A stretch of 62,898 nt of DNA, counting the filler. It is 13 parts of 13 records of this genome, joined end to end, with 100 filler letters (N's around TTAATTAATTAA, not from the genome) between each part and the next. Parts side by side here need not be neighbours in the genome. Positions count along the whole stretch, not along the records: positions 36,259 to 41,242 come from SRR7504441_4618; 12 more parts are not named here. One strand, written 5' to 3'. Both the position numbers and the translations under genes were made by a program. Of this stretch, positions 3,101 through 41,242 are shown in pieces (within the stretch, counting starts at the first letter, position 1; each line of letters starts with the position of its first letter). The notes under the pieces were generated by a model. The model was not told the DNA's origin, made no database searches, and saw only the letters and a program-made list of their open reading frames with translations.

Positions 3101-6100
3101 TACATTGCCAACCGAATCCTCGTCCGCAGGATCCGGTTTCGTTGAAGCTGTGTGTTGCTGTTGAACACAGCAACCGACCCAGAAGTGGCACAGAATATTC
3201 AGGTGGATCCATTCCTCCAGAGATGAGCTGCCTATCAGCCATTCCTGGTACATGGTTCGGACCATTAGCTGGGCGGACCACAGGCCTTTGAAGACCTCCC
3301 ATTCGCGATTTTCAGATTCATCCATTGCCAGGAAGAAGGTATGCGATGTGTCTTCCACCAGTCGGAATAGGGCGCCTTGAACTTCTTTCGCCAAGTGGAC
3401 CACAAATTTTTGATCGGCTGATGGCGTCTCTTCGAGCGTCGGGATTTCTCCCAAGAGCGGGCTCAGAAATTCTTCCTCCGCATCCGCAAAATCTTCCTTC
3501 GGTTCTCTGCTGCCATAGGCAAACACATTAACGTCCACTCGAGTGATCTCGGTGAGCCAAAGCATGGTGCAGCCTGGACTGAGCGTCCACTCAACAATAG
3601 CAACGACCCTGTCCGGCATCTGCACAATGTTGTAAGGAGAGACATCATCATGCCCGGGCTCGGCCCCGTGGATAAGCATGTCACAAGAACTGATCAAATC
3701 GTCCACTGAGCTCCTCAGACCTGACGCCCCCTGCCCGTGCAGCTTGCAGCTGAGCCCAGAGTACTCGACTTTAATTTTATTGATTGGCCGGAGCTCTGTT
3801 GGGATCGTCTGACCGTATTCGTCCACACCAGCTGGACAGGTCACCAGCACCTGTCCCAGATCCATTTTTAGCTTCCCTCGCGCGCGCCCATCCACATTCC
3901 GGCCCTCCAGAATCACAACCGGGAGCGAAAGCTGCAGCCGAGACTGTATCCCCAGCGGCTGCACTCCACTCGCATTCCTTAGCCGGGTCTGTGTGAGCAT
4001 CGTGGCTTGCATAAGCTTGCCCAACGCCTGAGCAATCGGCTCGGCGTTCTGGATCCCGGGAGAATCGACAATTGCATCGAGCTCGCCAGCCACTATGCCT
4101 TGGAGCAGATCTTTCGTCAGTTCGTGAGACCATTGCAACGTCGCGTCCGTGTACCCGACCGTCGAGCCTGCAACCTTAGTATACAGCTCTTCCAAGTCAG
4201 CCCCTAGATCTGGCCTGCCGTTCCTTCTCAGCAGCTGCACACACTCCCTCAGGCTCCTATGGAACGCCGATTCGCTGCTGTCAAAGCTATCTGCGCACGC
4301 CGTGGCCCATTCTTGATCCGACACCATCCCATCGCCGTCGAGGTCCACACCGCCATGCAGCTGCGCATTGAGCGCCTGCATGAACTCTTCCCTCGACAAG
4401 CTCCCGTCGCCGTCCGTGTCCGCCTCCGTCAGCCAGCTCATCAGCGCAGTGCACAGCCAGCAGTACACTTCACACAGCGCGTATGGGTCCAGCACCATCA
4501 GCAGTTTCCCCAACTCGAGCTCAAACTCGGCCCAGTAAAGCTTCTCGTAAAACCGAAGCAAACTGAAGTTAGACATATCCAGCTGGTCCCGCAGCTGCTC
4601 CACTCGCTCCGGATTCACCGGCTGCTCGGTCAGCGCCCGCTCCAGCTGCCCCTCGAGCTGCGCATGCGCCTCCTGTGAGCTCGGTCAGCGCCTAGCTCGC
4701 GGAGCGCCTCGCCTGCGATTGCTCCATCTTAAGTCGCTCGGAGGTGCTCACGTTCCCTCGGAGCAGCCGGCTGGCACAGTCGGTCAGTGGCTGGTGGTTT
4801 CTAACGGATCACCGGGTCTGCAGGTCGCGCCGGAGCAGCTGTCTGTTCCCTGGGATCTTGTCCATCATGTTCCCGACCTACCCCCCCCCAATCGCGCCTC
4901 CTAGTTGTAGCCAACTCGCACCACAAACTTGATCAACGGCTCCGGCGAGTCCTCCTCGTGCAGAATCAAAGGGTGCTCCGCCTGCCGCGGATTCCGTTAG
5001 TTTCAGTTGGTTTCAGTTGGACCGGACCGAGCCGACGCGAAGCGCGAGCTTGTGCATGTGGCCCTCCAACCGGAAGAACACCCACTCCTCGTGCTGCGTG
5101 ACGTCCCAATCAGTCACACCTTCCCAATAAGGAAAGCACCTGGAGCTGTATCGCCGCTCCCACGATCGAGAGCTTGAGCATCGGCCCTATCTGTACGGTG
5201 ACGTTATCGAGCCCAATCCTCATTGGCATGTGTCTCATGTGAAATAGCAGCGCCTGGTTCTTGTCCGTTCGATTCAGTTGCTCATACCGCACCCGGTGGG
5301 TCCCGAAGAACTTAGTATGCTCGGCCAACACGTGGTCTATCGACAGACTCACTCGAACTGCCAGCCTCGAGTGCGGGAGCACGTGCTCGGATGAATCGAC
5401 CACTGCCTGGAGCTCCGAAGCCTCCATTTTAAGACCCATCAGCACCCAGTTGGATACGATGTCCGACAGCATACTCCCAAACTGCACCGCCCAGTCAGTC
5501 AGCTATGGCATCCTAAACCTGCAGATCGGCCGCGAGCGAGCTTCCACTCAGCATCTCGGGCCCAACATCACCACCCAACCCGGAGCTGGTGGTTCGAGTC
5601 AACGGACTACTCGGCGGGCTGAGCAGCCCGTCCCCGTGCACCACCTGCCCCCGTCAGTTTCCGTTAATTTCCGTTGAATCTCGCGTGGCACCAGCCGGCC
5701 GTCCGAGAGCAGCAGCCGCACGCCGGGTGCCCGGATCTCCAGCCGACCGATCCCGACCCGGATAAAGCAGTCAGGCCCGCTGGTCAGCCAGGCCTGATCC
5801 GGACCGGGGCCCTGGCAGTCGTAGTGCGGCTGGCCGGTGATCAACTTCTCCAAGTCTATTTCCACCTGCCGACCGTCCCGGCCGGCCCCGCTGGCCGGTT
5901 GCCTCCATCCGCCCAATCACGCTCTGGCCAATGTCCAGCCGGAGCCCGGTCTCCTGCCGCACCGCCTCGGCCACCTGCGGCTTGAGCCGGACTCTCTCAA
6001 AGCTGCCGGTAACTGCCGCGCCCTCAGACGTTTAAATTAAATCGGAGGCCGCACTCGGCCCGTCGTGCCCGATGGCGATCGTCACCTCGAGCAAACTCTC

Positions 6101-11514: not shown

Positions 11515-14500
11515 TTATAATACGAGTACATGTGATTGCTCTTCATACATCTGGAGCAAGCTGGTATGATGTTGCTCATACATCTGGAGCAAGCTTGCGG
11601 CCATCCCTTGAATGTCCTCATGAACATCCTCAGAGTATTTTACCGAACGTAGCTGCTGCAGAATCAATTCCTCCTCCTCGACTGGAAGCTTGATCTTATT
11701 TTTGAGGTTCATGATTGCCTTTGTCGCTGCTTTCTTGATCTTGTCAAAAATACTATTGAACAATGAGCTAGCCAATTGAACCACGCCTGCTTTTCTGAGG
11801 TTGATCCTGCAAAACAGACCCATCAAGATTTCGATTGCCTAAATACTCACTTGACTGAATACGTATTGGTCACACCCTCGTTGTTCTCGATTTCAACTCC
11901 AAGTATCACCGATGCTCCAAGTCCCTTGCTCTGAAGACACCAACTCATGCATTGATATATTTTCGCAGGACTACCTCAAAAAAGATCTTGTGTATAGAGA
12001 ATTCGAGCAGGGCTTCGATCGCTGCAACAGCCTGCGAGCACGCACACGCATTTGGATCATGCTTTCAGACTAGCCGAGAGCCACCTTCTGGATGGCTGTG
12101 TTGACAAAATTCTTTGCCTTATTGAACGCATCTTGCCATACCCCAAGAAGCTTCTGAGCTGGAGCAATTAGGGCTTGGGCTGGACAAGGAAATGAATGAA
12201 ACGCCAACCGGGGGGGCAACTACCTGCTGCCTTGGTGGCTCCGCATGCTACTGTCATCAATCCGGACGCCGCTGCCTTTCCCGCCTGCCATTACAATGAT
12301 CATCGCTCAGTAATAAGTCCAAGCATAGGTCACCTTGCACAATGCCTTGGCCGTTGCTTTGGCAGCCTTCTTGGCCGCCCTGGCCGTTGCTTTGGCAGCC
12401 TTCTTTGCCGCCCTCGCCGTTGCTTTGGCAGCCTTGGATACGTGCTTGCCAACTGATTTGCCAAATTTGCGAGTTGCTTTGGCAGCCTTGGATGCGTGCT
12501 TGCCAACTGATTTGGTAGCCTTCGATACGTGCTTGCCAACTGATTTGGTAGCCTTCCCGACGGTTTTCCCCACGTTTTTAACAAGTTTGCCCCAAAATCT
12601 ACTTGTAGTTCTTCCTCGCACTTGCATTGCGTCATGTATCCTATCTTCTGCTGTAACCTAAGGCACATATTCCTCAGTCTCAATCTATCCACGACAAATT
12701 ACCGCGGCGTTGGCCTGCAACAGTAACTCCTCTTCCTTGCATGCTTTGCTTTCCGCTTTGAATTTGTCTCTTGCTCCGTTGCACTTCTTAATCGCCTTTT
12801 CTAGCCCATTTTGTGCCCATTTCAAACCCTTTTGTGCTTTTTCTAATCCAGTCTCCGCCAATTTCAAGAGTTTTTCAATCGCTTCCTGTGCAGCTCTGAC
12901 GGGCTTGACAGCTTTGCCACACAGCGTCTTCAAAAAATTGTTGATGTCTGGCGAGATTTCAATCTTTGAGTACAAGTCAAGCTTCAGTGGGTCGCCGGGG
13001 GATGTCTCAAGTTTGAGCTCTCCAGCCAGTGTTCCTCCAAACAGTGACACGTGACGGAGGTGAAATTTACGGGTGTCTGAAGTGATAGCAATCGATGCTT
13101 CGGCCTCAGCGACACCAGCAATCTTGGCATATCCATTGAATTTGAATTCAAAATCTCGAGATGCGGTGTCAGCACTTACTGCGAGGTGCGGTCCTTGATC
13201 CAAGTCATTCTTAGCCCTTGCAATAACAATCTTGTCCCCGAAGAACTTGACCGGTGGTCCAGTCAAAGACAACGCTATCTTTGTCCCTGTCAACTGCATC
13301 CTGAACCTCAACCGTGCACCAAATAGGTTGAGTGTGCCCTCAGTATTGAGACCCATCGCGATCTTCAGCGGAGGATTGAGTGCTTCAATTGTAACGTCCC
13401 GGAAAGAATAAGAAATATAGGCAAAGCAGGCATCTCCTCCGCCCTGCTCCTTGCATTTCTCCATATCGTACGGCTCGACGCCTGTCTGTCCTAGCCATTT
13501 AGGCAGCCTGCTCTTGCCTGCAAAAGCAGCAACGACATCTGATATAGTAATCTTAGACACAGCTGCGTAGAAGAATGCATCGCCTGCTGTATCGTAACCA
13601 AGATAGACCTTGGCACTGATTGCACCCTCGATTGACGGCCGCACTTTACCACGGATGGCCCTCTCAAAGTCAACAGCCGAGGCCTCTTCAAAATTGCCCT
13701 CGCTGTCAAAAGTGTCGTCATCAATGTCTTTGACACCGTCCTCTTTGCCCGATTGCTCATGCTGGTCATGCGCTTTCGAAAGCTCCTGCTGGTCAAGCGC
13801 AAGAAGCGAGCGAGATCTCCCGATCTTGGGCCCCTTGCGTGATTTCCCAGCAGCGAGCTGTTTAATCTGTTGGTTGGACTTGGCTTCGGAGCGCAACTGA
13901 AGCAGCAATTCCTGAGCAGCCTCCTTATCTGCCTGGTTAACATCGGATTGCTGGAGTTCTTTCAACATCTTTTGCATCAGCACTTGGGCTCGATCGCTCA
14001 TCTTGCTGGAACATTGATGTTGGATCAGTTCATCGTCACTGCCGTAAACTAGTTGACGGCATTTCTCAGCGGGTCCAAAGCACATCCCCCCACCGATGGC
14101 AAGCCCACTGATGGCTGGCACTCCTGTCGCTATGCCAACTTCACCCTTCAGCACCAGGTCGTACAGATTGAGGTTGGCGATCCCAAAGACACTCTGTGCC
14201 ATCCCATCCATGGTGAACTTCATCCCCAAGGATGCTGATGCTCCAATATTAGCAAACAGTGAGCCTGTAAACAGGAGATCTTGGTTCTTCAGAGCCACTC
14301 TAAGGCCTGCATGAACCGAAAAGCTGAGCTTCAATGGTTTCAGAGATGACTTGTAGGTCAATCCAGCGTCGGTTATTGTCACAGATTTGCCGAGCTTGAT
14401 GTCGTCGAGAGCAATCCCAAATTCCATGTCTGTGGCGCTAATGCGTGCCGTCAGACCAAGACTGGACGTGTCGCTCATACTATTTGACGCCAAATTGCAT

Positions 14501-15798: not shown

Positions 15799-18700
15799 TC
15801 AGGGGGTCCCAGGCAAGGACGAATAGCCGGTCGGAGCTTGCTTATGTCGCGAACACTTCAACAACTTGGCTAATGCGTGTGAGAGCTGCTCAAGCGAATG
15901 AAACATGCCATGCACATGCCATTGCAGAAACAAGAGCAGTAGCGTTGCACACAGGTATGCGAATCCAAATGACGGCGCCACTGCAATGCCAAATTCATTC
16001 TGCACTCCTGTACTCCAGCAGTCAGTAAGCGCGGCAGCAATCGAGCGCAACCTTCAGAGTAGCAACTGTGCCTGTATTTGTCGATATCGTAGCCATGAAT
16101 CAAGCCGACCATAGAGAGAAGTGAGGCCAGCAAAGTCCATGCGGCTGCGCTCTCGAACTCGCGATCGATAATGAACACCATGCAGGCTGACCAAATGATT
16201 GACGTAAAGAGGTATCCCTGCAACAGACCACTCAGCAGCTGCAGGCTAGCTGACAGCCCACCTGGGATAGCGCAACTATCCCGTCCAGGTACAATCCAGA
16301 CCCAAACTTCTGACTGAGTTGGTCCCACGAGGCACAGTTTGGCTGTTTGGGCTGGAGCTGTTCGAATACATTGGCCGTTTCAGAAATAATGGAGAAGCCC
16401 CAGCCTGCGAGGCAAGGCACCAGCCCGACCTGTGCCCAGCAGGCTCACCAGGAGTGTTTAATGAGGCCGTACCACAACAGCCAGCCCGTGGGCCTTTCGA
16501 GAGTGTAAGTCCTCGTCAAAAGCCAGCGCAGTGATGACAACACCGATCCATACAAGCAGCCCAACGGCGACCTCTGTTGGAATGTAGCGCACTGCAGCAC
16601 AAGAGGGTGTCAGGTGGGACAGTCACGTGGCTGAGCGCTCACAGAATAGAACGCCAGCATTGACCATAGCAGCTAGCAACGTGAGTACGCCGTTGACCAC
16701 TGAATATCCGGACCTCGCCCCCATAGACTTGTAAGCCGCATGCCCGACATAAATGCATCCAGGGAACGGATTTCCGAGCAGAGCAGAGAGAGTATTGGTA
16801 GCACCAACCAGAATCATCGTGGTGCGAGCATTGTAAGTGTCACCGACAACTCCGGCCGCATCGCAGTTTACAAAGTCGTTCACTGCGTTTTGTAGTGCCA
16901 GTGGCAGAATTACACCAATGTATTGCCACCCTGATCCTCGTTCAAATACACGAATCAGCCTGCTTATTTGAGGGATAGGCAAGTAAGGGTATTCCAGACT
17001 GTATGCGGCTGAGTCATTTGGCGCAAAAACAGGATCCAACGCCGTGAACCCGGCCTGTGAGAGGCCATAGCTTCCCCACGCGATGATCATGCCGATGATC
17101 ATGGCTGCGAGGGTGCCTGGGCACGAAAACGGGAGCAAAATGCCACTCCCATATGCACAGAGGATGATCACAAGAGGAGCCAGGGCAGTGACCGGTTTGG
17201 CAAACATCTGCAGCCGCCTAGTCAGGTAAAGGCGGCGCAGGCGGGGCGCTGACCTCGAACGCGAACCCCATCGAAATGAAAGAAATAGAGACCCCAGCCA
17301 AGCAGGAGAGCAGCGCAGCCCTGGGGATCAGTCGACGCAGGGGCTCGATGGTGAACGCGAAGCCAATCTCGAGCAGTCCAGTCATGAAGCATGCAAATAC
17401 GCCCACATCAATCGCGTCATCAACCTTGGCAGTCCTGTTGTATTCGATAGCCATCACTGAGTACGTGAATGGGAGCGTGAGCACCACGTTGATCCCGAAT
17501 GGCATGGCCATATGGTCAGCGTCGCCCAGCGCCGACATTAGCCGACGGCACATCCAGGCGCACCACATGTTGCCCACAAATACGCACACCGCCGTTGCCG
17601 GAATCAGCTCTTTTACGATATACCCCGGCTTGGTGTCAGCTCCAAAAGAAGTCGTGATGGTCAAATAGAGAACAAAACCTGCCTCGCCCCTGAGACCTCG
17701 CCGGTGGCACCGCACCGATGATCGTGTTGGTGAATAGCGCGACACAGCCGTTCACGTCCCCTGTCACGCAGTGCCGTGGCTGCCGAAGGCTCTCTGTCGA
17801 ATCCAGCTCAAGCCGGTCCTGTGAGGCCTCCAGATCGCCTTCAGTCACAGGCCCCACCACGCAGCACGAGTGAGACCCTCCGGCTGCGATCGTCTTGACT
17901 GCCAGCGTGTCCAGGGTCTCGACTGGCGCGAAGCTGGTCCGCCGTCGAGTGTCTTGCAGACCCAGCTCTCCATCTTGCCCCCAGCCAGCGGAGAGTACTC
18001 GCCCATTGTCTAGCATTACGAGCGTGTGCTTCCGGCCACTGGCCACCTGGGCCACCCCGGACTCGATCACCTTGACCGGGGCGTACACCACTCGGCCGGC
18101 CGAGCCCAGCCCAAGTTGGTAGTATGCGTTCCATCCCCAACACCACAGCGCGCCATCCAGATCAATCCCAAACGAGCTGTGGTCTCCGCACGTGAGGCTA
18201 GCCACCCGGTCCATCAGCGCGAGCGGGCTAGCGCTGCTCAGCGTGTCCGTGCCCAGTCCGAGCTGCCCGACGTCCCCGCATCCCCACACCATTAGCTGTC
18301 CGGACTGCGTGAGCGCCGCGCTGTGCCTCCAGCCGGCCGCGACAGCAGTCACCTGCTCCAATCCCGGAATCTGCTGCGGTGTGAGCACGCGGGAGCCATC
18401 GGCTTCCACCCCCACTTGGCCGTCGGAGGTCTGTCCGAACCCCCAGCAGCTCCCATCGCGACAGACCACGAGCGAATGCTCGCCTCCAGCTGCAGCGCAG
18501 ATGGCACTCCTGCCTTCGCCGCCAAAGCCTGGTATCCGGCGAGGCTTGGTGCACTCGGTGCAATTGCCCAGCCCGAGCTGCCCTTCCGCATTTGCGCCCC
18601 ATCCGAACGCCCGGCCCTCCTCGGAGACTGCGCCCCTGACTCAGCCGCCGGTGCGCCAGCCGGGTTTACCGCAGATAACGTGTTCAGCCCGGCAAGCCAC

Positions 18701-19205: not shown

Positions 19206-21735
19206 GTGCGCTGGCGGCTGGCGGTGCTGCTCCCACTGCTCGCCGTGGCAGCGCAGCCGACGGACCTGACGGTCGCCTGTGGCCCATCCGGCCGGCGTCA
19301 CCGGTTCGGGCAGGCCAAGGCCTCGCTGGCACGGCGGGAGGAGCACAAGATCTCCCAGGAGGCCTCGGCCGCCGAGCGCAAGGTGCGGGCGATCCGCCAA
19401 CGGAACCAAGCGTCGGCGGCCACGTTTGCCCGGTGCGCACGGGTGCCTTCTGAGCTCAGCGGGCGGGCGCAGGCGGGAACGGTTCCTGCAAGCCGAGCTG
19501 CGGGCCGAGGCCGACACGGAGCCCCCGAGCCGGGTGGCGACCGCAGAGGACTTGGATCCGGCCTGCGGGTACCAACGGACTATTCAGAAGGCGACCCGGC
19601 AGTTCCTGTCAGCCTCGATGAAGCTGCGGCGAAAGTATCCGCGGTGCAGGCAGGCCGTGTACTCAAAAGGGACTCAGAAGGAGGCTGCCGCGCTGCTCCG
19701 TCGCATGGCGAACGACACGTCCCGCGTGCAAGCTCGCAGCAAAGCTTTTGGCGCGGGACAGGATACACTGTGGCCTACACTCACCTCTCTAGCCTCTCGG
19801 TACTGTGCGGGCAAGTCTGCGCAGGAAGCAACATTCTGTCAGCTCCTACAAACACTCAACCAGCTGTATGCATCGCAGTCGCACGGATTTCAGGTGGTCC
19901 TAAAGGACGTAGTGTTGCACTATTGCGGCAAGGTGCGCAGAACACCACAGCCATGGCATTTGTCTCACCAACAGTCAGCAGCAATGACGTTTGACACCAT
20001 CCACGGTGTGCTTCAGAGTTATTGCAGCACGGGAGTGGCCAGGGCCGATGACCAGCTCGGGCCCCGTGGGACAGATTGCGATTCATCCTCGGACCACAGA
20101 GAGCTTGGCGCGAGTGTGCTTGACGATGCCGCTGTCAGCGCAGCAGGGACCTACCTGCAGCGAGTCCAGAGGATAATCTCAGATCTCACCAAACTGTGCA
20201 AGCATGACGACAACTGCGGACTCACGAAGTCTTTGCTTAAGGGCATCAACTCAACTGCATTTCAAGCACAGGAGTCGAACGACTACACTAACCACAAGGC
20301 TTACATCAAAGGCCTGATGGACCAGTACTGCTCTGAACAATCAGACCGCCAGATCTGTGCCTCATTAAAGGGGCTCTTAAAGCACACACCTGCCGGCGCC
20401 CGCCAGGAGACGTCTGCAAATAGTGAAGGTGGGTTGGAGAGCAAGGTGGCCATCCTGGCTGAGAAGTCTAAAGCAGCTGTAAACGCTGCAAATGCCAAAG
20501 CTGCTGCGCTGAAGCGGCAATTAGACCTGGAGGTTGCTAGACTGCGCAGTGTTACTCCTGATGACCCAAAGGCGGAGACTGTCACCTACCCTATGCACTC
20601 TTCAGTGCTTGCCATCTTACGAACAGAAAAAGAAATTCCCATTCTACGAACAGAAAAAGAAACTCCATGTAAAGGTAGCAACATGGAGGGGATATTCTGT
20701 GCGCTTTTCCGTGGAGTGCAGGTGCTGCTCCGGAAGGCTGAGGCTTCTGGAGATTATGACGAATTTGATGTTTATGTAAAGAAGCTCCGCGATCGATTCT
20801 GTGGACAGTCGCACTCAGGTAGATGCAGCATATTCCCACTTCTGCTACGGCACAGCAAACGGGCAACTTTGCACGGGAGTGAGCCCATTATTTCGCCGAA
20901 TGAAGAGCGATGCTCGGTATTGCATGGTCTTCAAAATCAAGCCAGATCAATAATATCTGGCGCTGACCTGGGCGAGGCTGCTGCAGTGGAGACCTCTTAT
21001 GATGAAAAACTTCTGAAGTCCATGAGGAGCGCTGTTGACTTTTATAATGCATCTTCGGGGGATTGGTCGCCGATGCAGCTACCAGCAATGCAAATGTGTC
21101 AAACATACCGCACTGAAATGAAAAGACTCGTCGAACAGCACACTAAAAGTACTCGACAGGCAACGCAAAGGTTGATGAGACGCACTTCCTCAGGCAAGAG
21201 GAAGGTCAGCAGCATGCTTGGGAAAATGGAGAAGGATCACTGTGGAAGTTCATACAACTCAGTATTTTGTCAGCTGGTCACTGGGCTAGGCCAGGTCTAC
21301 CTGAAGTCTAGCAAGACGTGTGACCTGCAACAGCACAACCAGTTCAAGGCACTACTCCAGCGGCTACTGGGCCATTTTTGTGACACAGATGAAACTCTGC
21401 GTGAGTCAGTAAGCTCCGAGCACAGCGCACTCAAAAGTCTGTGCGGCCAAAGCAAGAGCAAGCGCTGCGAACTTTTGCAACAGCTTGCAACAACAGTGAA
21501 GCTGGCTGACTCAACATTGCCCAAAAGGAATCTACAGGGCTTTGAATCTGGTCTAAGTTCACTTGTTCCACAGTTCTGCTTTCCGAACGCATCAGCTGAT
21601 GTTGCCGCTTGCTCTGGCCTGCAGACCTTTTGGAGACAGTGCCAGCGCAACCATCTTCCTCAACAAACTATTGTCATCCTTATCCGAACTTGCAATAATA
21701 TCCTCACTCTTGGCCTGGTCGAGATTGTAGTGTAG
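19206..21735 (+). CDS. Putative secreted helical protein with repeated Cys-X5-10-Cys modules
   Basis: Signal-like RWRLAVLLPLLAVAA, two short introns, then a long ORF with YCAGKSAQEATFC, YCSEQSDRQIC, FCGQSHSGRC, HCGSSYNSVFC, LCGQSKSKRC. Start codon unclear. Confidence 0.7.
20614..20667 (+). repeat. 27-nt in-frame tandem duplication (ILRTEKEIP/ILRTEKETP)
   Basis: atcttacgaacagaaaaagaaattccc followed by attctacgaacagaaaaagaaactcca. Confidence 0.85.
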
Positions 21736-33149: not shown

Positions 33150-34989
33150 TTATTTAACGTTGGCCCCCTTATCTCGCGGGAACTTGCTCAGGTCAACGGG
33201 CCGGATTAGATTGTGCGACAGTGCGGCAACAGACACGAGCCCAGCCATTGTAAACATTGAGCTATCGTAGATGAACGGCGTGGGGTCAGCGATCCCGGCG
33301 GGCGCCAAGCTGAGCAACTTGCTGATGCTCACGGTCTTGGCATCAACCAGCTGTTGGCAGTCCGAGACGTGCACGCCGAACCGGTCATAAAACCTGCTCG
33401 GGTCCACCTGAGTGAGCAGCTTGCGGATCGCCTCGGCCTCCGAACTCGACCTGAGGCTGATGAATAAATTGGGGCCGGCTACGGCCGCCAGGGAGTTGAA
33501 GAGCAACATCCGTCCGTGGATAGCGCCAACGTCACGAGCCCCAAAAAGCGTGGCCTCGTAAGCTGGTGTGGTGGAAATCACTCCGCACGCCAGAAACACG
33601 GCCACAGAGGTGCCGCCCACGAACGCATAGAGCGGGAGCTGTGAGCCAGTAGCTGCCACCTGGTGCACCATCGTGGGAGCCGCCAGGAAGATCGGCAGTG
33701 ACCCAGCAATGATTGAATTAAATGCTGTTCGGCAGCCCACCCTATCCGACACGGCGCCCATCCCGAGCCGACCGGAGACATTGGCTGCGGAGAGCAGCAT
33801 CAGATAGGATGATGTCCAGGAGGCGGTGACCACGCCTGGCAGTGCGCCTGAGAAGACTTCGGAAGTCATCCCCTTGGCCACGGCGAAGAGCCCATACGTG
33901 CCAGTAGTTAGACAGGTGAAAGTGACCCCGAGCAAGTAGAACTGCGGCGTCCGCATCACCTGGTCGACCGTGAGCGACGGCGCTTGGCTGACGTCCGGGG
34001 GGGTGTATCCGTCAGGCAGCCACCCTGCCAGGCCTGTGAGCTCCGGGCCAGGCCGAGCAGGCACCGGGTCTGGGCGTGCGGATGGTCATTGCAGCGGCCG
34101 ACATCACTCCAAAGTAGCCAGCTCCGCAGAGCATTAACGCCTCGGCTGCACCGGTGCTCCCAGACCCGACTAGGTAGAGACCCTCCGATAGCCCAGGCCA
34201 GTCCAGGTGCGCCAACTCGGCACTGGTGGCCTGGACCACCTCCACCCATTCGCCGGCCGGCTGCTGTGCGAACAGCACCCCGTCCCGAGTTGTGGTCGGG
34301 CAGCTGTCCATTGGCCCGACAAACGTGGGCAGTGACCCAAACTGCCTCATCAGCTGGCCCATCAGCGGCACCGTCACCAGCGCGCCAGATCCAAACCCGG
34401 CCACCAGCGTGCCCACCGCCAGGCCCTTCCGGTCCGGAAACCACTGCATCAGGGCCTGTATCGGCGGGGTGTACGCCATCCCGACCCCGGCCCCGGCCAT
34501 CACCCCATACCCCAAGTTGAGCAGCCCTAGGCTGTGCCAGGCCACTCCGCAGCCGCCCAGCGCCACCCCGCCCCCAAACAAACCGGCCGCCACCGCCACC
34601 GACGCCCGGGGTCCGGCCGCCGCCTGCCACTTGCCTGCGGCCGCCCCGACCAGCCCGAACGCGGTGAACAGGATCGGCATCGGCATGGTGCTCTCGAGCA
34701 GCCCCCAGTCAGAGGCGGCCGGCGAGACCCAGCCGTGCTCGCGCACGATTGTGCTCGACACCACGCTCCAGGCCCAGCCGGTCCCAATGCACATGTGGGT
34801 GGCGAATGCCGGGAGCATCACCCGCCAGCGCGCCTCGAACCCTTCGGCCGCCACCGCCGACTCGGGCCGGAGCACTTGCGGACACCAGGTCGGGAGCGGT
34901 GGGGCCGGGCTGCTGCTGGCCAGGCCCCGCACCGCCAGCGGCACTTTGCCGGCCCGCCCCGCGGCGAGCCTGCAGCCCACCGACAGCAT
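33150..34989 (-). CDS. MFS transporter, oxalate/formate antiporter (OFA)-like, one intron
   Basis: HMCIGTGWAWS, GYGVMAGAGVGMAYTPPIQALMQWFPDRKGLA..GFGSGA, ANVSGRLGMGAVSDRVG; Arg-rich presequence-like N-terminus. Confidence 0.9.
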
Positions 34990-36158: not shown

Positions 36159-36258
36159 NNNNNNNNNNNNNNNNNNNNNNNNNNNNNNNNNNNNNNNNNN
36201 NNTTAATTAATTAANNNNNNNNNNNNNNNNNNNNNNNNNNNNNNNNNNNNNNNNNNNN

Positions 36259-38681
36259 CCCGCAAGTTTGACGGAGTCGGCGCACAGCCGAGCCCGGCGG
36301 CCCAGCCCGAGCCAGCCAGACCCGCCGCCCCGCCCGAGCAGCCGTCCCCGGCAGCCGACCCCCCAGCCAAGCGGCCCAAGCCCAGCCCGGGCCCTCGCGT
36401 GACCAAAAAGTGGCTGAGCGGTGACGGCGGAACAGCCGACGGCTCCCATGAGGAAGACACCTCCGGCTCGCTGGCTGCCCGGTGAGCTGCTGCGGCGCCG
36501 GGCTCTAGATAAGCAGAGGGGCAGCTACCTCCAGCGGCAGCGGCTCAAGCAGGCGCCCAAGGGCGGGCCGGGCACAGTGCTCGTGTCCGGCATGTCCAAC
36601 TACACCGCCGAAGCCCAGGTGCGGCCCGGCCGGGGCGCGCGAGTGGGCCTGGCAGCTGTGGGAGCTCCTGTCCAAGGCTGGCACGGTGAGGCTGCTGGTG
36701 CTGGGGATTGATCGGTGTGACCGCAAGCCCGTCGGGTGGCACGGCCGCAGGCCGCAGTCAACCGGGCGGGCAGGTTTGCGTTGGTGGCGTTTGACTCAAT
36801 CGCGCAGGCGCGGGGCCAGTCCGCGGTGGGGGCTGAGGCGAGTGGGCAGGCAAGCGCAGCGGTCGGGCTGTTTGATGGCAAGGCTGTTTAATTCATCAGT
36901 CGATTCAGTGCTGATAGAGCCACAGGTGCTGGATGAGGCGACCATCAAGGCTAGCCTGGTTGATCCGCTCGAAGGCCCCGAGGACGCGCGCCGGTTCGGT
37001 GTGCCGGCCGATCAATGCACCTGGCTAGTAACATGGGCAGGCAATCGCACCCGGGTGTGCACTGCAGCCAACTGGGAGGAGCCGGTTCTCGGCGCTGACT
37101 GGCGAGAGGCCGCGAGCGCGTGGCCAGGCGCACAACCGGCACGTGATCCAGGCAGTCGCGTTTGACAACCGCGAGAAGGGGTACTCAGTGTCGGTGCCTT
37201 TGCTCAAAGCCCAGGTAGCGAACAAGCTGTCCAGGTCGGCCAAATCGAATTCGACCGGAGGCTGCGGTCCGAGGCCCCCACGCTCAAGTACCGGAGGCGG
37301 AAGGACGAGCTCAAGACAGTGCGGAGGGCCGGTTTGGAGCGTTCAAGAGGGGGCTGCAGGTGTGTCACTGGGGCCAGCGGAAGCTGCTCATGGCGGAGAT
37401 TGAGTTTCTCACGCTGCACGCCAACCCAGGCCAAGAGGCCACTGTAGTGTACATCGGAGCGGCCCCAGGAGCGCACATCCCCTATCTATGTCAGGCGAGA
37501 TGCCACTGGCTGCCTGTTGCTCACCGCTCAGCAGCTTTTCCCCAAACTCAAATTCGAATTGATAGACACAACCCCATTCAGCTGCGGCGAGACCCACGCG
37601 GTGCGGATCCGCAGACAAGCGATGACTCCGCAGTTAGCCGAGGAATTTAAGGACCGCGAGAGGTATGGGCCCTGGGCTGGCCTGCAGTAACGGCGGAGCA
37701 GGTACCCGCAGCTGCTGTACATTAGCGACACACGAAAGTCTTCTGATCCTGATGCCCAAACCGAAGACGAGAGTGATGCTCAGGTCAGCACACCTGTTCA
37801 GTTCCAGTTGGATTGAGTGATCTGGCAGGCGCGGCGGGAAATGGAGAACCAGAAGCGATGGCACCAGGTCTCAAGCTGGGTTGTATTGAGGATGAGTGCC
37901 TGGGTTCAGGCGATGCAACCGACTGCCTCAATGTTGAAATTCCGACTGAGCTGGGAGCCGGGACTCACTGAATATCTGGAGGGCGACGTGAGAGTGCCCA
38001 TCCTGGCTGCTGCTGACTAGTGTCAGATATTTCTGCCTATATGGGGCCCAGTGACCACCTCAGAGAGTCGGTGACTCCGTTAGCTGTGTCCAAGCTGACA
38101 GCACGGACAGGTTGCACTGCACCGCTGGGGCTAAGATGGTGCAATGGGATAACACCAAGTGGAGCGCCGTTGTTCCATTCGGCTGAGCTAGTGCAGGTAT
38201 GAGCGACAAATGTTCTATTTCAATACGCACACAAGAGTGGCTCTTTACGCTCATCCAGTGGAATCAGCACACGTCTGCCAGCTGCTCTAATACTCTGAGC
38301 CTTAGCAGGTGAGTGCACCGGGTTTGGATCACTGCTACGACTGTACAGCTGAGGTAGGCCAGGCAGGCAATGGCAGTGGCAGTGTTAGCGCACGGGCTTA
38401 GGTGCATGTGCTTAAGTCTTATCTTGTCAAATTCCACCAAGAGGAGGTGCCACTCTCTCGCTGCTGTGGGTCGAGCTGGCCGACCAGGTGAGCTCCTTCA
38501 GCGACAAAGAGCTGCGTGATGAGCTATCGCAAATGGTCATAACGGTGCGGCATTTGTATGTCAGTGGCTCTTAATACGTGGGGCTGGACAGGTTGGTAGA
38601 AAGTGCTCACTCAAGCGAACCCTTGAGGATGCCAATCCGGGGCCGAGGACACAAGCTCCGGAAGTTCGGAATTGGCTTTGA
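36259..38681 (+). CDS. CBP20-like RRM fused to a VP39/PARP-regulatory-subunit-type cap 2'-O-methyltransferase; about 20 introns; 5' truncated
   Basis: Hand-spliced RRM: NYTAEAQLWELLSKAGTVRLLVLGIDR..VGFALVAF..DGKVLDEATIK. MTase: KYRRRKDELKTVCHWGQRKLLMAEIEFL, VYIGAAPGAH, YISD, MLKFRL, WGPVTTSESRL, YFNTHTR, DHCYDCTAE. Stop TGA at 38679-38681. Confidence 0.88.
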
Positions 38682-39098
38682 GGAGACGAGTAGGAGCTCA
38701 CGCCCATGATGCTTGAAGCTATAGAAGCAGTTAGCTACATGTACGGTATACAAGCATGCTGTTCATGTGTTAGGCATGTGTTGTACTGAGGCCATAATGC
38801 ATACATGTATAGGCTAAAATGCATACATCCGCTTAGTATCCGCTACCTACCGCTACCGCACAATCATGTAGGGTATACGTAAACACTAGTTAGTCATCGG
38901 TTCTGAATCAATCATCAACCTGATCTAGAGGACCGACACCAGAGATCCTTTATTATAATTATTATAAACAGTTAACTCTGAGTTAACTCTAGTATCATTC
39001 TCTAAGTACTATCTAAGTACTATCCAAGTACAAGTACGTTACCTATGCACCCTACCGTTCATGAGTCAAAGAGTTACCCTCAACCTACCCTTGACCAC

Positions 39099-39480
39099 CT
39101 ATCGACCACCTCCAGCTCGCCGTTCAATCGCCTCCAAGCCTTGTTGAAGCTTTCTTGTCAACGAGTTCTCTTGGTTCGACGCTGTGGCTTTCTTCTTTCC
39201 TAGGCTCCCGAGGAATCCCAGCATGACCCCTGCTACTGCCGCACCTATCAGCAAAAGTCAACCCAATCAGATGCACAAGGTGCACCATCTTCGCTGGGCA
39301 TTAAGTTGGGCGCGGGAGCCTAAGGGGAGCCATCATTAAAAGTTGTCCCGGGCAGAAGGAAGGGCGGACCGCACCTCGCGACCGTGCATTGTGTTCATCA
39401 GCAGCGAGGGCGCCACCGAGGCCCCGGTACATGACGGGAACGTGCTGATCCGGGTGTCCATGACTGCCAGGATCACTGAA
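39099..39480 (-). CDS. Possible small spliced hypothetical gene
   Basis: Terminal exon AAVAGVMLGFLGSLGKKK..ERRAGGGR* follows an AG acceptor; upstream structure unresolved. Confidence 0.25.
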
Positions 39481-40224
39481 GTTGCGCCGCCGCCATCATC
39501 TGAGTCCAGAATTAACTGGAGCCCCGACAGTAGTGCGACAGGGTATGAACTGACCGATGCAGGCCCGGCCGCAGTCTGCCGCTCCGCGCTCCAATGGACT
39601 CCGGCAGACTCTGGCAGACTCCCGCTGCGACTTGCTCCAGCAGGTGCCCGCCGGCGCTCACATTCTATAGCCCGACGGCCGGTCTTCTCACTAACTTCTC
39701 ACAACTCTAAGATTAGGGGGCAAGATTGTTTGTATAATAGATCATTCGTGTTGTCCTGTTCAGCTGTTGTTATCATAGTTGTTGTCATACTTAGAGCCTC
39801 AACTGCTTCTCAAGATTAAGAGCCTCAATGCAAAGGCTCACTACACGTCAGACTCTAACGACTCTAATACCGCTGAGATGGTTATGAGATGGTGTATTGA
39901 CACTCTATTGACACTCAACAGACGATCCGGTAACGATTCGGTGCTCTCGAGCTTCAATTAGTACTACATGTACGTGTACGTGTACTGTACTGTATTACTG
40001 AATTAAAGCCGCACCTACTTGAATAAATTGACGCTCATCTGCGAAAAAAAACGCACCGGCTAAATCCAGCTGCAGCAGTGCAGAAATTCTAACACCTATG
40101 GCTATTTCGAATACCCAATTACTCTTTTGAGCACTCATTTCAAATACAAATAAATATTCATGTGAAACCCGGATTGTAGATCTTAGAGCATATACCAAGT
40201 ACCGGTAACAACTCTCATGGTCAT

Positions 40225-41242
40225 TTAGCTCTCATTCACTGCCTGACGCCGCACCTCCTCTACGGGCACTTTGGTGCGAGCAAATTTGATGAGCCCTTTG
40301 GGAGAGCCTCTCTTCGGATCGGCAGTCACGCAAGCCAAGTACATATCGCCGTTCTCTAGATCGACTCCGACCTCGTGTGGCGTCACACAAAGCTTAGTTG
40401 GGATCTGAATCGATTGGAGCACGCGGCAAGGACCAGGACCGTCTGCGGTAATCTGGGAGCCGTCCAAGACGTGCAAAAACTGATCCCGGCCTGTTTCAGG
40501 TGAGTCGGCAACTGCCAGAAAGATGAGATCGTCTCGAGGGAAGCTCGAGCGGACACCCCAGGCCTTGCCTGCATGTCCAAGCGAAGGGCAGGTCCACTCC
40601 CCAAGCACCTTCCCAGTCTCGGCCGAGAGAATTTGGGTGCGGTTCATCTCCCTGTCAGCAACGAACAAGCTGCGGGTTCGGGCGTGAAAGCAGAGCGAGT
40701 GTGGTGACGAGAAGTGAGGGTCAGGCAGAGAAGACGCCCCATTGCCTGCGATCCAGAGCACAGCATCCGGGTCATTGATGTGCTTCATCGCGTTCAGCGC
40801 AACCACCCGGTCGTTAGGGCCGCCATCTCCGTCGGCGACGTAGGCGATTCCCCGGGCGTCGTCGAAGTCCCCGTCGGCGACGCATCCGTACTGCAGGAAG
40901 GGTGACGTGTCAGAGCCCTGCTTCCCGGTGCCGCCGCGCATGACGAAGCGGCCCGTCCGGGAGGAGTGGACCAGGACTGAGCCAGCGAACATATCGTAGA
41001 TCCACAGGCGAGGAGTGGCACCCTTGGGGAACTCGAGGTTGATGCCGTGAGCGCCCCATGTCCCGTTGTTGTACATCACTGTGTCGTTGCCGAAGCTTCG
41101 AAGCAGATCGCCCTCCCCGCTGAAGACCAGGACCGGGCCGTTCGTGCTAGCCAGCAGGTTCTTGCCCCTCTGAGAGACGAACACCTCCTTCCCGGGAATG
41201 GTGTGGTCTACTGCCACGGCGGAGATCCCGAGCGACGCGGGC
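40225..41242 (-). CDS. NHL-repeat beta-propeller (NHLRC3/PAL-like), 5' truncated
   Basis: WGAHGI, YVADGDGGPNDRVV, FSSPHSL, LFVADREMNR, PHEVGVD. Confidence 0.85.

What the first reader, a model, noticed from the sequence alone, without database searches (positions are those of the whole stretch)
36259..38681. Cap-reader/cap-writer fusion: CBP20-like RRM joined to a VP39-type cap 2'-O-methyltransferase
The gene is almost invisible in the ORF track because about 20 introns of 37-51 nt fragment it. Spliced, 36571-37000 reads TVLVSGMSNYTAEAQLWELLSKAGTVRLLVLGIDRCDRKPVGFALVAFDSIAQASAAVGLFDGKVLDEATIKASL..RRFG. This aligns closely with CBP20/NCBP2 ([46 protein letters not shown]..RQYG). One 41-nt GT-AG intron (37194-37234) joins it in frame to a VP39-family MTase with the full K-D-K-E tetrad (GQRK, YISD, MLKF, SESR) and the SAM motif YIGAAPG. 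Known: this MTase family occurs in poxviruses and giant viruses and among the trypanosome cap-4 enzymes acting on spliced-leader RNA. The CBP20 cap-stacking RNP2 Tyr is Leu here. Inference: a dedicated cap-hypermethylation module that binds the cap or docks on CBP80, possibly for an unusual cap or trans-splicing system. I know of no description of this fusion.
Basis: partly seen in the sequence, partly recalled or inferred. Interest (0 to 1): 0.85.

Follow-up and report, generated by a model that had tools for sequence, protein, structure and literature searches.

The report
CBP20-like RRM fused to cap methyltransferase
A marine protist gene, split by 20 tiny introns, joins an RNA-binding domain descended from the nuclear cap-binding protein CBP20 to a poxvirus-type mRNA cap 2'-O-methyltransferase; the same rare fusion occurs in other protists and links cap binding with cap methylation.

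Summary
Window 36261-38681 (+) is one gene of 21 exons and 20 introns of 36-48 nt (18 GT-AG, 2 GC-AG). It lies at the start of a 5-kb contig, so its 5' end may be missing. Spliced, it gives about 534 aa: a low-complexity N-terminus, an RRM, a short linker and a VP39/PF01358 cap 2'-O-methyltransferase. The methyltransferase keeps K-D-K-E, the SAM motif and two of its own cap-pocket residues. PolyA metatranscriptome contigs confirm 4 of the 20 introns exactly. A single BLAST alignment (E 1e-92) to a Calcidiscus leptoporus transcript product covers RRM, linker and methyltransferase, so the fusion is real and is not unique. The RRM is CBP20-derived: the one informative window exon hits only CBP20 chains in the PDB (weak E-values), and the RRMs of two fused homologues hit CBP20 first (E 2e-17 and 6e-12). 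The CBP20 cap-stacking tyrosine and the W-D pair are lost, so "cap reader" is not supported. A tether to CBP80 or to nascent RNA is more likely. Nothing supports an unusual cap or trans-splicing. The fusion is rare: 3 RRM-bearing proteins among the 150 best family hits, and none in 78 giant-virus loci. It sits auto-annotated in UniProt, and four literature searches found no description. Verdict: new variant of a known kind, moderate interest.

The parts
36261..38681 (+). Whole coding region as modelled: 21 exons, 20 introns, 534 aa, stop TGA 38679-38681. It is 5'-open at the contig edge 36259.
   Evidence: Collinear with P0066 and P0056.
36261..36481 (+). Exon 1, uncertain: a low-complexity Pro/Ala-rich N-terminus with a KRPK motif, or a 5' UTR. 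The alternative start is ATG 36448 in the frame of the next exon, without intron 1.
   Evidence: Frame 2 is open with no Met. An oligo-dT RNA contig covers 36259-36424 and runs 24 nt beyond the contig start. By my own estimate from base composition (no call), an open frame of 73 codons at this GC content has roughly a 0.15 chance of arising by accident, so coding is not shown.
36519..36998 (+). CBP20-like RRM, in exons 36519-36618, 36656-36735, 36774-36807, 36850-36885 and 36926-36998.
   Evidence: Exon 36656-36733 gives 5 of 5 PDB hits to CBP20. phmmer to the P0056 RRM gives i-E 1.8e-10. Alignment.
36571..36573 (+). Leu codon at the position of the CBP20 cap-stacking RNP2 tyrosine.
   Evidence: Alignment of ours to P0056 and of P0056 to human and yeast CBP20.
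36775..36792 (+). RNP1 strand. The first aromatic is kept and the second is Leu.
37041..37318 (+). Linker plus the conserved N-terminal extension of the methyltransferase, in exons 37041-37084, 37128-37193 and 37235-37318.
   Evidence: Homologous to P0056, P0120 and P0066 across the junctions.
37360..38681 (+). VP39/PF01358 methyltransferase core and C-terminal helical region (12 exons).
37381..37383 (+). Catalytic Lys 1 (GQRK), equivalent to VP39 K41.
37450..37470 (+). SAM-binding motif YIGAAPG.
   Evidence: alignment to VP39.
37727..37729 (+). Catalytic Asp (YISD).
37937..37939 (+). Catalytic Lys 2 (MLKF).
37952..37954 (+). Trp at VP39 position 180, the aromatic wall of the methyltransferase's own m7G pocket.
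   Evidence: The role of the position is taken from PMC13393146 (passages) and from recall.
38063..38065 (+). Catalytic Glu (SESR).
38201..38203 (+). Glu equivalent to the VP39 cap-pocket Glu (in YE..M.Y.N).
36482..36518 (+). Intron 1, 37 nt, GT-AG. Uncertain.
   Evidence: Model only.
36619..36655 (+). Intron 2, 37 nt, GT-AG.
   Evidence: Needed for the frame. RRM alignment.
36736..36773 (+). Intron 3, 38 nt, GT-AG.
36808..36849 (+). Intron 4, 42 nt, GC-AG, in frame. Its removal gives an ungapped RRM helix 2.
   Evidence: There is no RNA cover.
36886..36925 (+). Intron 5, 40 nt, GT-AG. The alternative GC donor at 36883 (43 nt) fits P0056 without a gap.
36999..37040 (+). Intron 6, 42 nt, GT-AG, in frame. 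The frame stays open if it is retained.
37085..37127 (+). Intron 7, 43 nt, GT-AG.
   Evidence: The junction falls inside a conserved motif shared with P0056, P0120 and P0080.
37194..37234 (+). Intron 8, 41 nt, GT-AG.
   Evidence: P0066 and P0120 run ungapped across it.
37319..37359 (+). Intron 9, 41 nt, GT-AG.
   Evidence: A related transcript contig continues directly into the next exon's sequence (record 4).
37495..37534 (+). Intron 10, 40 nt, GC-AG.
   Evidence: No GT donor fits the frame..
37663..37701 (+). Intron 11, 39 nt.
37784..37828 (+). Intron 12, 45 nt.
37868..37909 (+). Intron 13, 42 nt.
37988..38026 (+). Intron 14, 39 nt.
   Evidence: RNA contig joint in X4.
38071..38110 (+). Intron 15, 40 nt.
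   Evidence: RNA contig joint in X4.
38159..38196 (+). Intron 16, 38 nt.
   Evidence: RNA contig joint in X4.
38273..38308 (+). Intron 17, 36 nt, revised from 38258-38308.
   Evidence: P0066 alignment without a gap. One RNA contig reads through it unspliced (record 6).
38354..38401 (+). Intron 18, 48 nt, ends TAG.
   Evidence: The same unspliced RNA contig covers it.
38447..38487 (+). Intron 19, 41 nt.
38545..38591 (+). Intron 20, 47 nt.
   Evidence: RNA contig joints in X15 and X16, from two studies.

Best explanation
This is an expressed nuclear gene of a marine protist, probably a picozoan. It encodes an mRNA cap ribose 2'-O-methyltransferase of the VP39 family with a CBP20-derived RRM at its N-terminus.

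Shown:
- One reading frame runs through the RRM, a linker of about 25 residues, the family's conserved N-terminal extension and the catalytic domain.
- The catalytic domain keeps K-D-K-E, the SAM motif, and the aromatic and glutamate positions of VP39's own m7G pocket.

Inferred:
- The methyltransferase recognises the m7G cap by itself and methylates the 2'-OH of one of the first transcribed nucleotides. Which nucleotide cannot be read from sequence.
- The RRM has lost the CBP20 cap-sandwich and is not a second cap reader. It acts as a flexibly tethered targeting module.
- The module brings the enzyme to newly capped polymerase II transcripts, either by holding the RNA just behind the cap or by sitting on CBP80 in CBP20's place.
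- It would then play the role that G-patch or WW domains play in sister proteins of the same family and in animal CMTR1.
For: Gene model and expression:
- Searches give the model.
- 4 of 20 introns are confirmed in polyA RNA contigs, and the 3' end is collinear through the stop codon in two runs.

Fusion:
- One HSP to P0056 covers model aa 93-533 against P0056 aa 5-469 (38% identity, E 1e-92).
- The linker is homologous across intron 7.
- Frame 1 is open from 36926 to 37084.
- Pfam finds RRM_1 plus PF01358 in P0056, P0048 and P0057.
- L118 is a further 5'-cut copy of the P0048 type.

Methyltransferase:
-. All 12 PDB hits of P0066 are VP39 (E 5e-13), and the motif positions map onto the model.

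CBP20 origin of the RRM:
- 5 of 5 hits are CBP20, but E is only 0.19-1.6.
- the top 5 hits are CBP20, E 2e-17 to 2e-14, and the alignment includes the C-terminal PGF.EGRQF extension.
- the top 6 hits are CBP20, and the next is U1A/U1-70K at 3e-8.
- the nearest RRM cluster by structure is NCBP2.

Loss of the cap pocket:
-, read against the residue roles stated in PMC11735809 (passages).

Hint for CBP80 docking:
- The tyrosine seven residues after the stacking tyrosine is kept in ours and in P0056. The same paper places its trypanosome equivalent, Y52, in the pocket between CBP20 and the large subunit. P0048 has Phe there.

Accessory-domain parallel:
- Of the 79 proteins of at least 400 aa among the best 150 hits, 8 carry G-patch, 3 RRM_1 and 1 WW.

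Variable linker:
- The linker is about 25 aa in ours, about 50 aa in P0056 and about 230 aa in P0048. This argues for a tether rather than a rigid part of the active site.
Against: - No RNA contig covers the RRM exons or the RRM-methyltransferase junction, so a single transcript is inferred and not seen.
- One RNA contig (38265-38437) is unspliced over introns 17-18. It could be pre-mRNA or DNA carried over into the RNA library.
- Three of the four window pieces of the RRM region sent to the PDB gave no hit at all. The one that hit did so at non-significant E-values. The CBP20 assignment of our own RRM therefore leans on its homology to P0056.
- The closest methyltransferase relative, P0066 (53-57% identity), shows no RRM. 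It starts right at the N-terminal extension and may be a cut gene call, which I could not check.
- The AlphaFold model of P0056 left residues 1-130 below pLDDT 50, so nothing is known about where the RRM sits.
- Neither CBP80 binding nor RNA binding was tested.
- The methylated position is unknown.
Confidence: 0.72

Rival explanations
1. CBP80-docking variant. The RRM is a CBP20 surrogate that pairs with CBP80, so the enzyme is a subunit of an alternative cap-binding complex that writes the cap it sits on.
For: - The domain is CBP20-derived.
- The interface tyrosine in the SxYTxExQ stretch is kept in ours and in P0056 (its role is from PMC11735809, passages).
- P0048 keeps the CBP20 C-terminal extension.
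Against: - No CBP80 sequence of this or a related organism was at hand, so nothing was folded or tested.
- Most CBP20 features outside the core RRM are gone in ours.
- P0056 and P0048 lack the N-terminal arm that in CBP20 folds on CBP80.
Confidence: 0.3
2. True cap reader plus cap writer. The RRM binds m7G and hands the cap to the methyltransferase.
For: CBP20 ancestry of the RRM.
Against: - The stacking tyrosine is replaced by Leu in ours, Arg in P0056 and Val in P0048.
- The W-D pair is not conserved in ours.
- The second RNP1 aromatic is Leu.
- Homologues have no N-terminal arm for the second tyrosine.
- The methyltransferase keeps its own cap pocket.
Confidence: 0.08
3. Two neighbouring genes, or a chimeric assembly, wrongly joined by my splice model.
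For: - The window is made of short concatenated contigs.
- There is no RNA cover on the junction.
Against: - The join lies inside one contig.
- Frame 1 is open from the last RRM strand into the methyltransferase's conserved N-terminal motif.
- A transcript-derived protein from an unrelated lineage has the same order, including a homologous linker.
- There is no room for a terminator and a promoter between the two parts.
Confidence: 0.04
4. An inserted giant-virus gene or a dead viral relic.
For: - PF01358 is common in Nucleocytoviricota.
- Viral loci reach 46% identity to P0056, including the N-terminal extension.
Against: - The gene has 20 spliceosomal introns, and spliced polyA RNA exists.
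- All catalytic residues are intact.
- GC content is like the rest of the contig.
- The neighbouring gene is 87% identical to a picozoan protein.
- 0 of 78 viral loci carry the RRM.
Confidence: 0.03

Closest known systems
Vaccinia VP39 (Pfam PF01358, cap-specific mRNA nucleoside-2'-O-methyltransferase)
   Same: Same fold family by sequence. K-D-K-E, the SAM motif, and the aromatic and Glu positions of the m7G pocket are kept.
   Different: VP39 is a single-domain viral protein that also serves poly(A) polymerase. Ours is a cellular, intron-rich gene with a conserved N-terminal extension, an RRM and a different C-terminal region. The target nucleotide is unknown.
Trypanosoma brucei TbMTr2/TbCom1 and TbMTr3 (VP39-like cap 2 and cap 3/4 enzymes)
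   Same: Cellular members of the VP39 family acting on nuclear transcripts (PMC4615557 and PMC13393146, passages). JGI names some relatives 'cap2 methyltransferase'.
   Different: I had no trypanosome sequence in hand, so no direct comparison was made. No RRM is reported for them in the passages I read. Their role is tied to the spliced leader cap 4, for which there is no evidence here.
CBP20/NCBP2, small subunit of the nuclear cap-binding complex
   Same: The RRM of the fusion family matches CBP20 better than any other solved RRM.
   Different: The cap-stacking tyrosine and the W-D pair are lost. In ours the C-terminal extension is reduced to a short RRFG-like remnant. The domain is fused to an enzyme instead of being a free 20-kDa subunit.
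Calcidiscus leptoporus A0A7S0IU63 (P0056), and P0048/P0155/L118 from environmental data
   Same: Same architecture: an N-terminal CBP20-like RRM, then a VP39-like methyltransferase. P0056 also shares the linker.
   Different: 38% identity to P0056. P0056 has a long C-terminal tail with a weak WW match. P0048 has a linker of about 230 aa. Both are automatic predictions without study.
Animal CMTR1 (cap 1 methyltransferase with G-patch and WW domains; domain make-up recalled, not from a call)
   Same: Works alike in outline: a cap 2'-O-methyltransferase carrying small RNA-processing or polymerase-docking modules. Sister proteins of our family carry G-patch (8 of 79) or WW.
   Different: CMTR1's catalytic domain is of the RrmJ/FtsJ type, not VP39-like (PMC4615557, passages). 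It has no RRM.

Membership tests
VP39-like cap 2'-O-methyltransferase (PF01358) | Match to the family profile above the curated cut-off | tested here: met
   One exon alone scores 32.7 bits against a cut-off of 25.4, E 4.9e-8. The spliced model aligns with family members at E 1e-92 to 3e-124.
VP39-like cap 2'-O-methyltransferase (PF01358) | K-D-K-E catalytic tetrad | tested here: met
   GQRK, YISD, MLKF and SESR align to the VP39 positions through P0066.
VP39-like cap 2'-O-methyltransferase (PF01358) | SAM-binding glycine-rich motif | tested here: met
   YIGAAPG aligns to VP39 YIGSAPG.
VP39-like cap 2'-O-methyltransferase (PF01358) | Own m7G pocket (two aromatics and a Glu) | tested here: inconclusive
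   The Trp at VP39 position 180 and the Glu of YE..M are kept. The N-terminal aromatic lies outside the aligned range.
VP39-like cap 2'-O-methyltransferase (PF01358) | Cap-dependent 2'-O-methylation activity and its target position | not testable with these tools
   Needs an enzyme assay.
CBP20/NCBP2 orthologue | RRM whose nearest relatives are CBP20 | tested here: met
   Window exon: 5 of 5 PDB hits are CBP20, but E is 0.19-1.6. Fused homologues: the top 5 and top 6 hits are CBP20 at E 2e-17 and 5.6e-12.
CBP20/NCBP2 orthologue | Two tyrosines that sandwich m7G | tested here: not met
   The RNP2 tyrosine is Leu in ours. No conserved N-terminal arm is present, and P0056 and P0048 start at the RRM. 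Residue roles are from PMC11735809.
CBP20/NCBP2 orthologue | Trp-Asp pair that bonds the guanine N2 | tested here: not met
   An ungapped alignment gives Leu-Val in ours. An Asp follows one residue later.
CBP20/NCBP2 orthologue | Heterodimer with CBP80 | not testable with these tools
   No CBP80 sequence was available and no whole genome is held.
Kinetoplastid cap-4 machinery | Spliced-leader trans-splicing and a hypermethylated cap in the organism | not testable with these tools
   No genome is held and there are no cap data. Relatives occur in lineages that, to my knowledge, are not reported to trans-splice.

The most novel reading that the evidence does not exclude
The fusion is a Rosetta stone. 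In these protists the CBP20-derived RRM takes CBP20's seat on CBP80, making a second, enzymatic cap-binding complex that couples complex loading with ribose methylation of the nascent cap. More broadly, VP39-like enzymes carrying RRM, G-patch or WW modules would be the working cap 1/cap 2 methyltransferases of many eukaryotic lineages, standing in for CMTR1/2. The family would then not be a viral loan to trypanosomes.
Probability: 0.18. Interest if true: 0.75.

Novelty: new variant of a known kind. Interest (0 to 1): 0.5.

Why it matters
A domain fusion is a natural experiment. It says that in at least three protist lineages the cap 2'-O-methyltransferase profits from carrying a piece of the nuclear cap-binding complex. 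None of the papers or passages I read describes a physical link between the cap-binding complex and cap ribose methylation.

The cellular VP39-like family also proved large. There were 3768 hits at E up to 1e-3. Named members come from haptophyte, choanoflagellate and amoebozoan transcriptomes. Their accessory domains mirror those of animal CMTR1. The review I read still treats the trypanosome enzymes as probable viral acquisitions (PMC4615557, passages).

The Calcidiscus orthologue comes from a cultured alga, so the idea can be tested at the bench.

Tried and rejected
- Whole-genome search: no genome is held for this window. I could not look for a canonical CBP20, CBP80, CMTR1 or a spliced-leader RNA.
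- PDB searches with three other window pieces of the RRM region gave 0 hits each: 36520-36618, 36926-37084 unspliced and 36775-36882 unspliced.
- A word-index search with the P0048 RRM at 'near' lengths gave 428 candidates, none at E up to 1e-3. I therefore obtained no free CBP20 sequences and built no RRM tree.
- The first metagenome scan, with 36448-36618, matched 598 pattern stretches but no relative.
- The second metagenome scan (A2) returned 80 loci. Only L118 carries a piece of the RRM.
- The viral scan returned 78 loci. None had an RRM match better than E 0.4.
- The AlphaFold2 model of P0056 folded the methyltransferase at high confidence, but residues 1-130 stayed below pLDDT 50. There is no statement on how the RRM docks.
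- RNA runs gave no cover on 36425-37288 in the four runs laid. This is a hole and not evidence of absence.
- The FastTree of 150 methyltransferase domains does not put the four RRM-bearing rows together. Support is local and weak, many rows may be cut gene calls, and I ran no clade test. I draw no conclusion on one origin against several.
- Earlier findings of this scan: nothing on this genome, these words or this sequence.
- Supplementary files of papers were closed. They might list domain architectures that I could not see.
Full report
**Setting.**
- The window is not one stretch of chromosome. It holds 12 linkers of the form N44-TTAATTAATTAA-N44, which cut it into 13 contigs of about 3-7 kb.
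- The finding lies on contig 36259-41242 and begins at its first base, so the gene may lack its 5' end.
- No whole genome is held.
- The only other long frame on this contig is an intron-free NHL-repeat gene at 40228-41241 on the minus strand. It is 87% identical (68% of the query covered) to a protein that EukProt lists under Picozoa sp. COSAG05, and 88% identical to an unnamed protein.
- I therefore take the organism to be a picozoan-like marine protist. All 18 sequencing runs that hold parts of the gene are labelled aquatic, marine, seawater or estuary metagenomes or metatranscriptomes, each with a small share of its words.

**Gene model.**
- I read the three forward frames and joined the coding pieces through short GT/GC...AG intervals. 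This gives 21 exons and 20 introns.
- The introns measure 36-48 nt, 816 nt in all. Eighteen are GT-AG and two are GC-AG. Nineteen end in CAG.
- The coding sequence is 1605 nt (534 aa plus the stop), ending at TGA 38679-38681. That is about 12 introns per kb of coding sequence.
- The model is not a product of choice among many paths. The spliced protein aligns with P0066 at 53% identity over 333 residues with a single one-residue gap, across 13 junctions (E 3e-124).
- It aligns with P0120 at 47% over 297 residues, and with P0056 in one alignment from residue 93 to 533 (E 1e-92).
- Contigs from polyA metatranscriptomes show joints at exactly four of my introns: 37988-38026, 38071-38110 and 38159-38196 in run X4, and 38545-38591 in runs X15 and X16, which come from two studies.
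- Those last two runs also read without a break from 38591 through the stop codon to about 38720.
- Against this, one X4 contig (38265-38437) reads straight through introns 17 and 18. It may be unspliced RNA or DNA in the library.
- No contig of the four runs covers 36425-37288.
- An oligo-dT contig covers 36259-36424 and runs 24 nt past the contig start, so the transcript begins further upstream.
- Whether 36261-36481 is coding (joined by a 37-nt intron, no Met in it) or a 5' UTR with the start at ATG 36448 is open.

**The methyltransferase.**
- The exon 37360-37494 alone finds only VP39 chains in the PDB (12 of 12, E 2.4e-5 to 3.5e-5).
- The same exon passes Pfam's own threshold for PF01358. 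In that of 9 exon translations matched PF01358, one gave a sub-threshold WW match, and seven gave nothing.
- P0066, the nearest relative, aligns to VP39 over residues 32-254 (E 4.8e-13). Through it the model's GQRK, YISD, MLKF and SESR fall on the K-D-K-E positions.
- Its Trp after MLKF falls on VP39 position 180, and its YE..M Glu falls on the cap-pocket Glu.
- A recent paper calls the aromatic-aromatic-Glu set the cap-binding motif of VP39, TbMTr2, TbMTr3 and a medusavirus Cap3 enzyme (PMC13393146, passages).
- So the catalytic domain looks complete and able to recognise the cap by itself.

**The family.**
- A full HMMER search with P0002 found 3768 proteins at E up to 1e-3, 297 of them at E up to 1e-30.
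- Named members among those I looked up are transcript products of Calcidiscus leptoporus (haptophyte), Salpingoeca urceolata and Hartaetosiga gracilis (choanoflagellates) and Ceratiomyxa fruticulosa (amoebozoan). JGI labels some 'cap2 methyltransferase'.
- They share an N-terminal extension before the catalytic Lys. Our exons 37041-37318 encode it.
- Giant-virus contigs hold relatives at up to 46% identity to P0056, including that extension.
- Of the 79 proteins of at least 400 aa among the best 150, all 79 carry PF01358, 8 carry a G-patch, 3 an RRM and 1 a WW domain.

**The RRM and the fusion.**
- I ran phmmer with the model's first 243 residues against the 153 proteins fetched up to that point: the 150 rows listed, which include the query P0002, plus P0001, P0003 and P0004.
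- It matched the RRM part in three of them: P0056 (i-E 1.8e-10), P0048 (6.9e-7) and P0057 (6.3e-7). In P0057 the RRM is C-terminal.
- All other matches were to the linker and extension only.
- Pfam confirms RRM_1 plus PF01358 in these three.
- P0056 is UniRef100_A0A7S0IU63 of Calcidiscus leptoporus, from a culture transcriptome.
- Its alignment with our model is continuous through the RRM, a homologous linker and the enzyme. The conserved motif at the start of the extension spans our intron 7 junction.
- In the DNA, frame 1 is open from 36926 (last RRM strand) to 37084 (that motif) even if intron 6 is kept.
- A third example, L118, is a metagenome contig whose 5'-cut 527-aa frame starts in the CBP20-like C-terminal extension and runs into the methyltransferase.
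- The fusion is therefore real, is found in at least three sequence clusters from different lineages, and is rare. None of 78 giant-virus loci, and only L118 among the 80 best metagenome loci, shows the RRM.

**Is the RRM CBP20-like?**
- For our own sequence the direct evidence is thin but pointed. The 26-aa exon 36656-36733 retrieves five PDB sequences and all five are CBP20/NCBP2, at E 0.19-1.6. Three other pieces retrieve nothing.
- The fused homologues settle it. The P0048 RRM hits yeast, another species' and human CBP20 at E 2e-17 to 1.9e-14. The next hit is a multi-RRM poly(A)-binding protein at 5e-12, and the next single-domain hits fall at 2e-7 or worse. The alignment runs into the CBP20-specific C-terminal extension.
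- The top six hits of the P0056 RRM are all CBP20 (5.6e-12 to 9.7e-10), and the next is at 3e-8.
- The Atlas structure search also puts an NCBP2 cluster first among RRM clusters (a lead only).

**Is it a cap reader?**
- In T. brucei CBP20, two conserved tyrosines sandwich m7G, and a Trp main chain and an Asp side chain bond its N2, 'as in human CBP20' (PMC11735809, passages).
- In the ungapped alignment of P0056 to human CBP20 (offset 36), combined with ours to P0056, the RNP2 tyrosine is Arg in P0056, Val in P0048 and Leu in ours.
- The Trp-Asp pair is Leu-Val in ours, and the second RNP1 aromatic is Leu.
- P0056 and P0048 begin four to six residues before the first strand, so they have no arm for the other tyrosine.
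- The human residue numbers I use in thinking about this are recalled. The roles come from the paper.
- By contrast, the tyrosine seven residues downstream is kept in ours and in P0056, and is Phe in P0048. The same paper places its trypanosome equivalent in the pocket between CBP20 and the large subunit.
- I conclude that the domain is a CBP20 offshoot that no longer clamps the cap, and that it may still recognise CBP80 or RNA.

**How it most likely works.**
- Shown: a complete cap 2'-O-methyltransferase and a CBP20-derived RRM in one frame, and the gene is expressed and spliced.
- Inferred: the enzyme finds the cap with its own pocket. The RRM, on a linker whose length varies from about 25 to about 230 residues among homologues, targets it to fresh polymerase II transcripts.
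- I give about 0.4 to plain RNA binding behind the cap, 0.3 to docking on CBP80 and under 0.1 to cap reading. The remainder is unassigned.
- Which nucleotide is methylated cannot be told. The family holds cap 1, cap 2 and cap 3 enzymes.

**Known and new.**
- The methyltransferase is a clear member of PF01358.
- The RRM is not a functional CBP20 orthologue by the cap-pocket test.
- Four literature searches found no paper on an RRM or CBP20 fusion with a VP39-like enzyme: 118 papers held at least 4 of 5 terms; 1 paper; 248; 108. I read only listings and, for three papers, passages.
- The one paper holding both CBP20 and VP39 is a trypanosome review that I saw only in the listing.
- Supplements were closed.
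- The proteins themselves are already in public databases under automatic names.
- I rate this a new variant of a known kind, of moderate interest. It offers a testable link between the cap-binding complex and cap methylation. It does not point to an exotic cap.

Noticed in passing
window 7085-58677 (12 sites, e.g. 36159-36258): The window is 13 contigs of about 3-7 kb joined by artificial N44-TTAATTAATTAA-N44 linkers. Neighbouring 'genes' across a linker are not neighbours in the genome.
   Followed up: yes
window 36261-38681 compared with 40228-41241 (-): Intron load is very uneven. This gene has 20 introns of 36-48 nt (about 12 per kb of coding sequence, two of them GC-AG), while the gene 1.5 kb away on the same contig is open for over 1 kb without any. 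Other contigs carry frames of 500-1170 codons.
   Followed up: partly
window 34025-34064 (-), 12648-12692 (-), 18628-18669 (-), 19933-19978 (+): Candidate 40-46-nt GT...CAG introns that would join long open frames in other contigs. The screen is noisy (278 candidates) and none was checked against homologues.
   Followed up: no
window 38265-38437: One polyA-library contig (X4, record 6) is identical to the genome and unspliced across introns 17 and 18. It may be intron retention, pre-mRNA or DNA carry-over.
   Followed up: no
window 37289-37321: An X4 RNA contig matches only 33 nt (2 differences). Past the exon end it continues with a sequence like the next exon's start. It is a spliced transcript of a close relative or paralogue in the same sample.
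   Followed up: no
P0029, P0080, P0056 and others: Cellular VP39-like methyltransferases often carry G-patch (8 of 79) or WW domains. These are the same kinds of accessory modules as in animal CMTR1, although the catalytic domains belong to different families.
   Followed up: partly
P0057 (Salpingoeca urceolata), residues 469-530: Here the RRM sits at the C-terminus of the methyltransferase. This is either an independent fusion or a rearrangement. I did not test whether this RRM is CBP20-like.
   Followed up: no
L001 and L002 (giant-virus contigs), 3001-4029: Viral relatives at 46% identity to the Calcidiscus protein include the 'cellular' N-terminal extension. Gene flow between protists and giant viruses in this family looks recent, and its direction is unknown.
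   Followed up: no
P0048 residues about 130-200; L118: The long linker of the P0048 type holds two similar short W...P stretches that look WW-like to the eye. Pfam did not call them.
   Followed up: no
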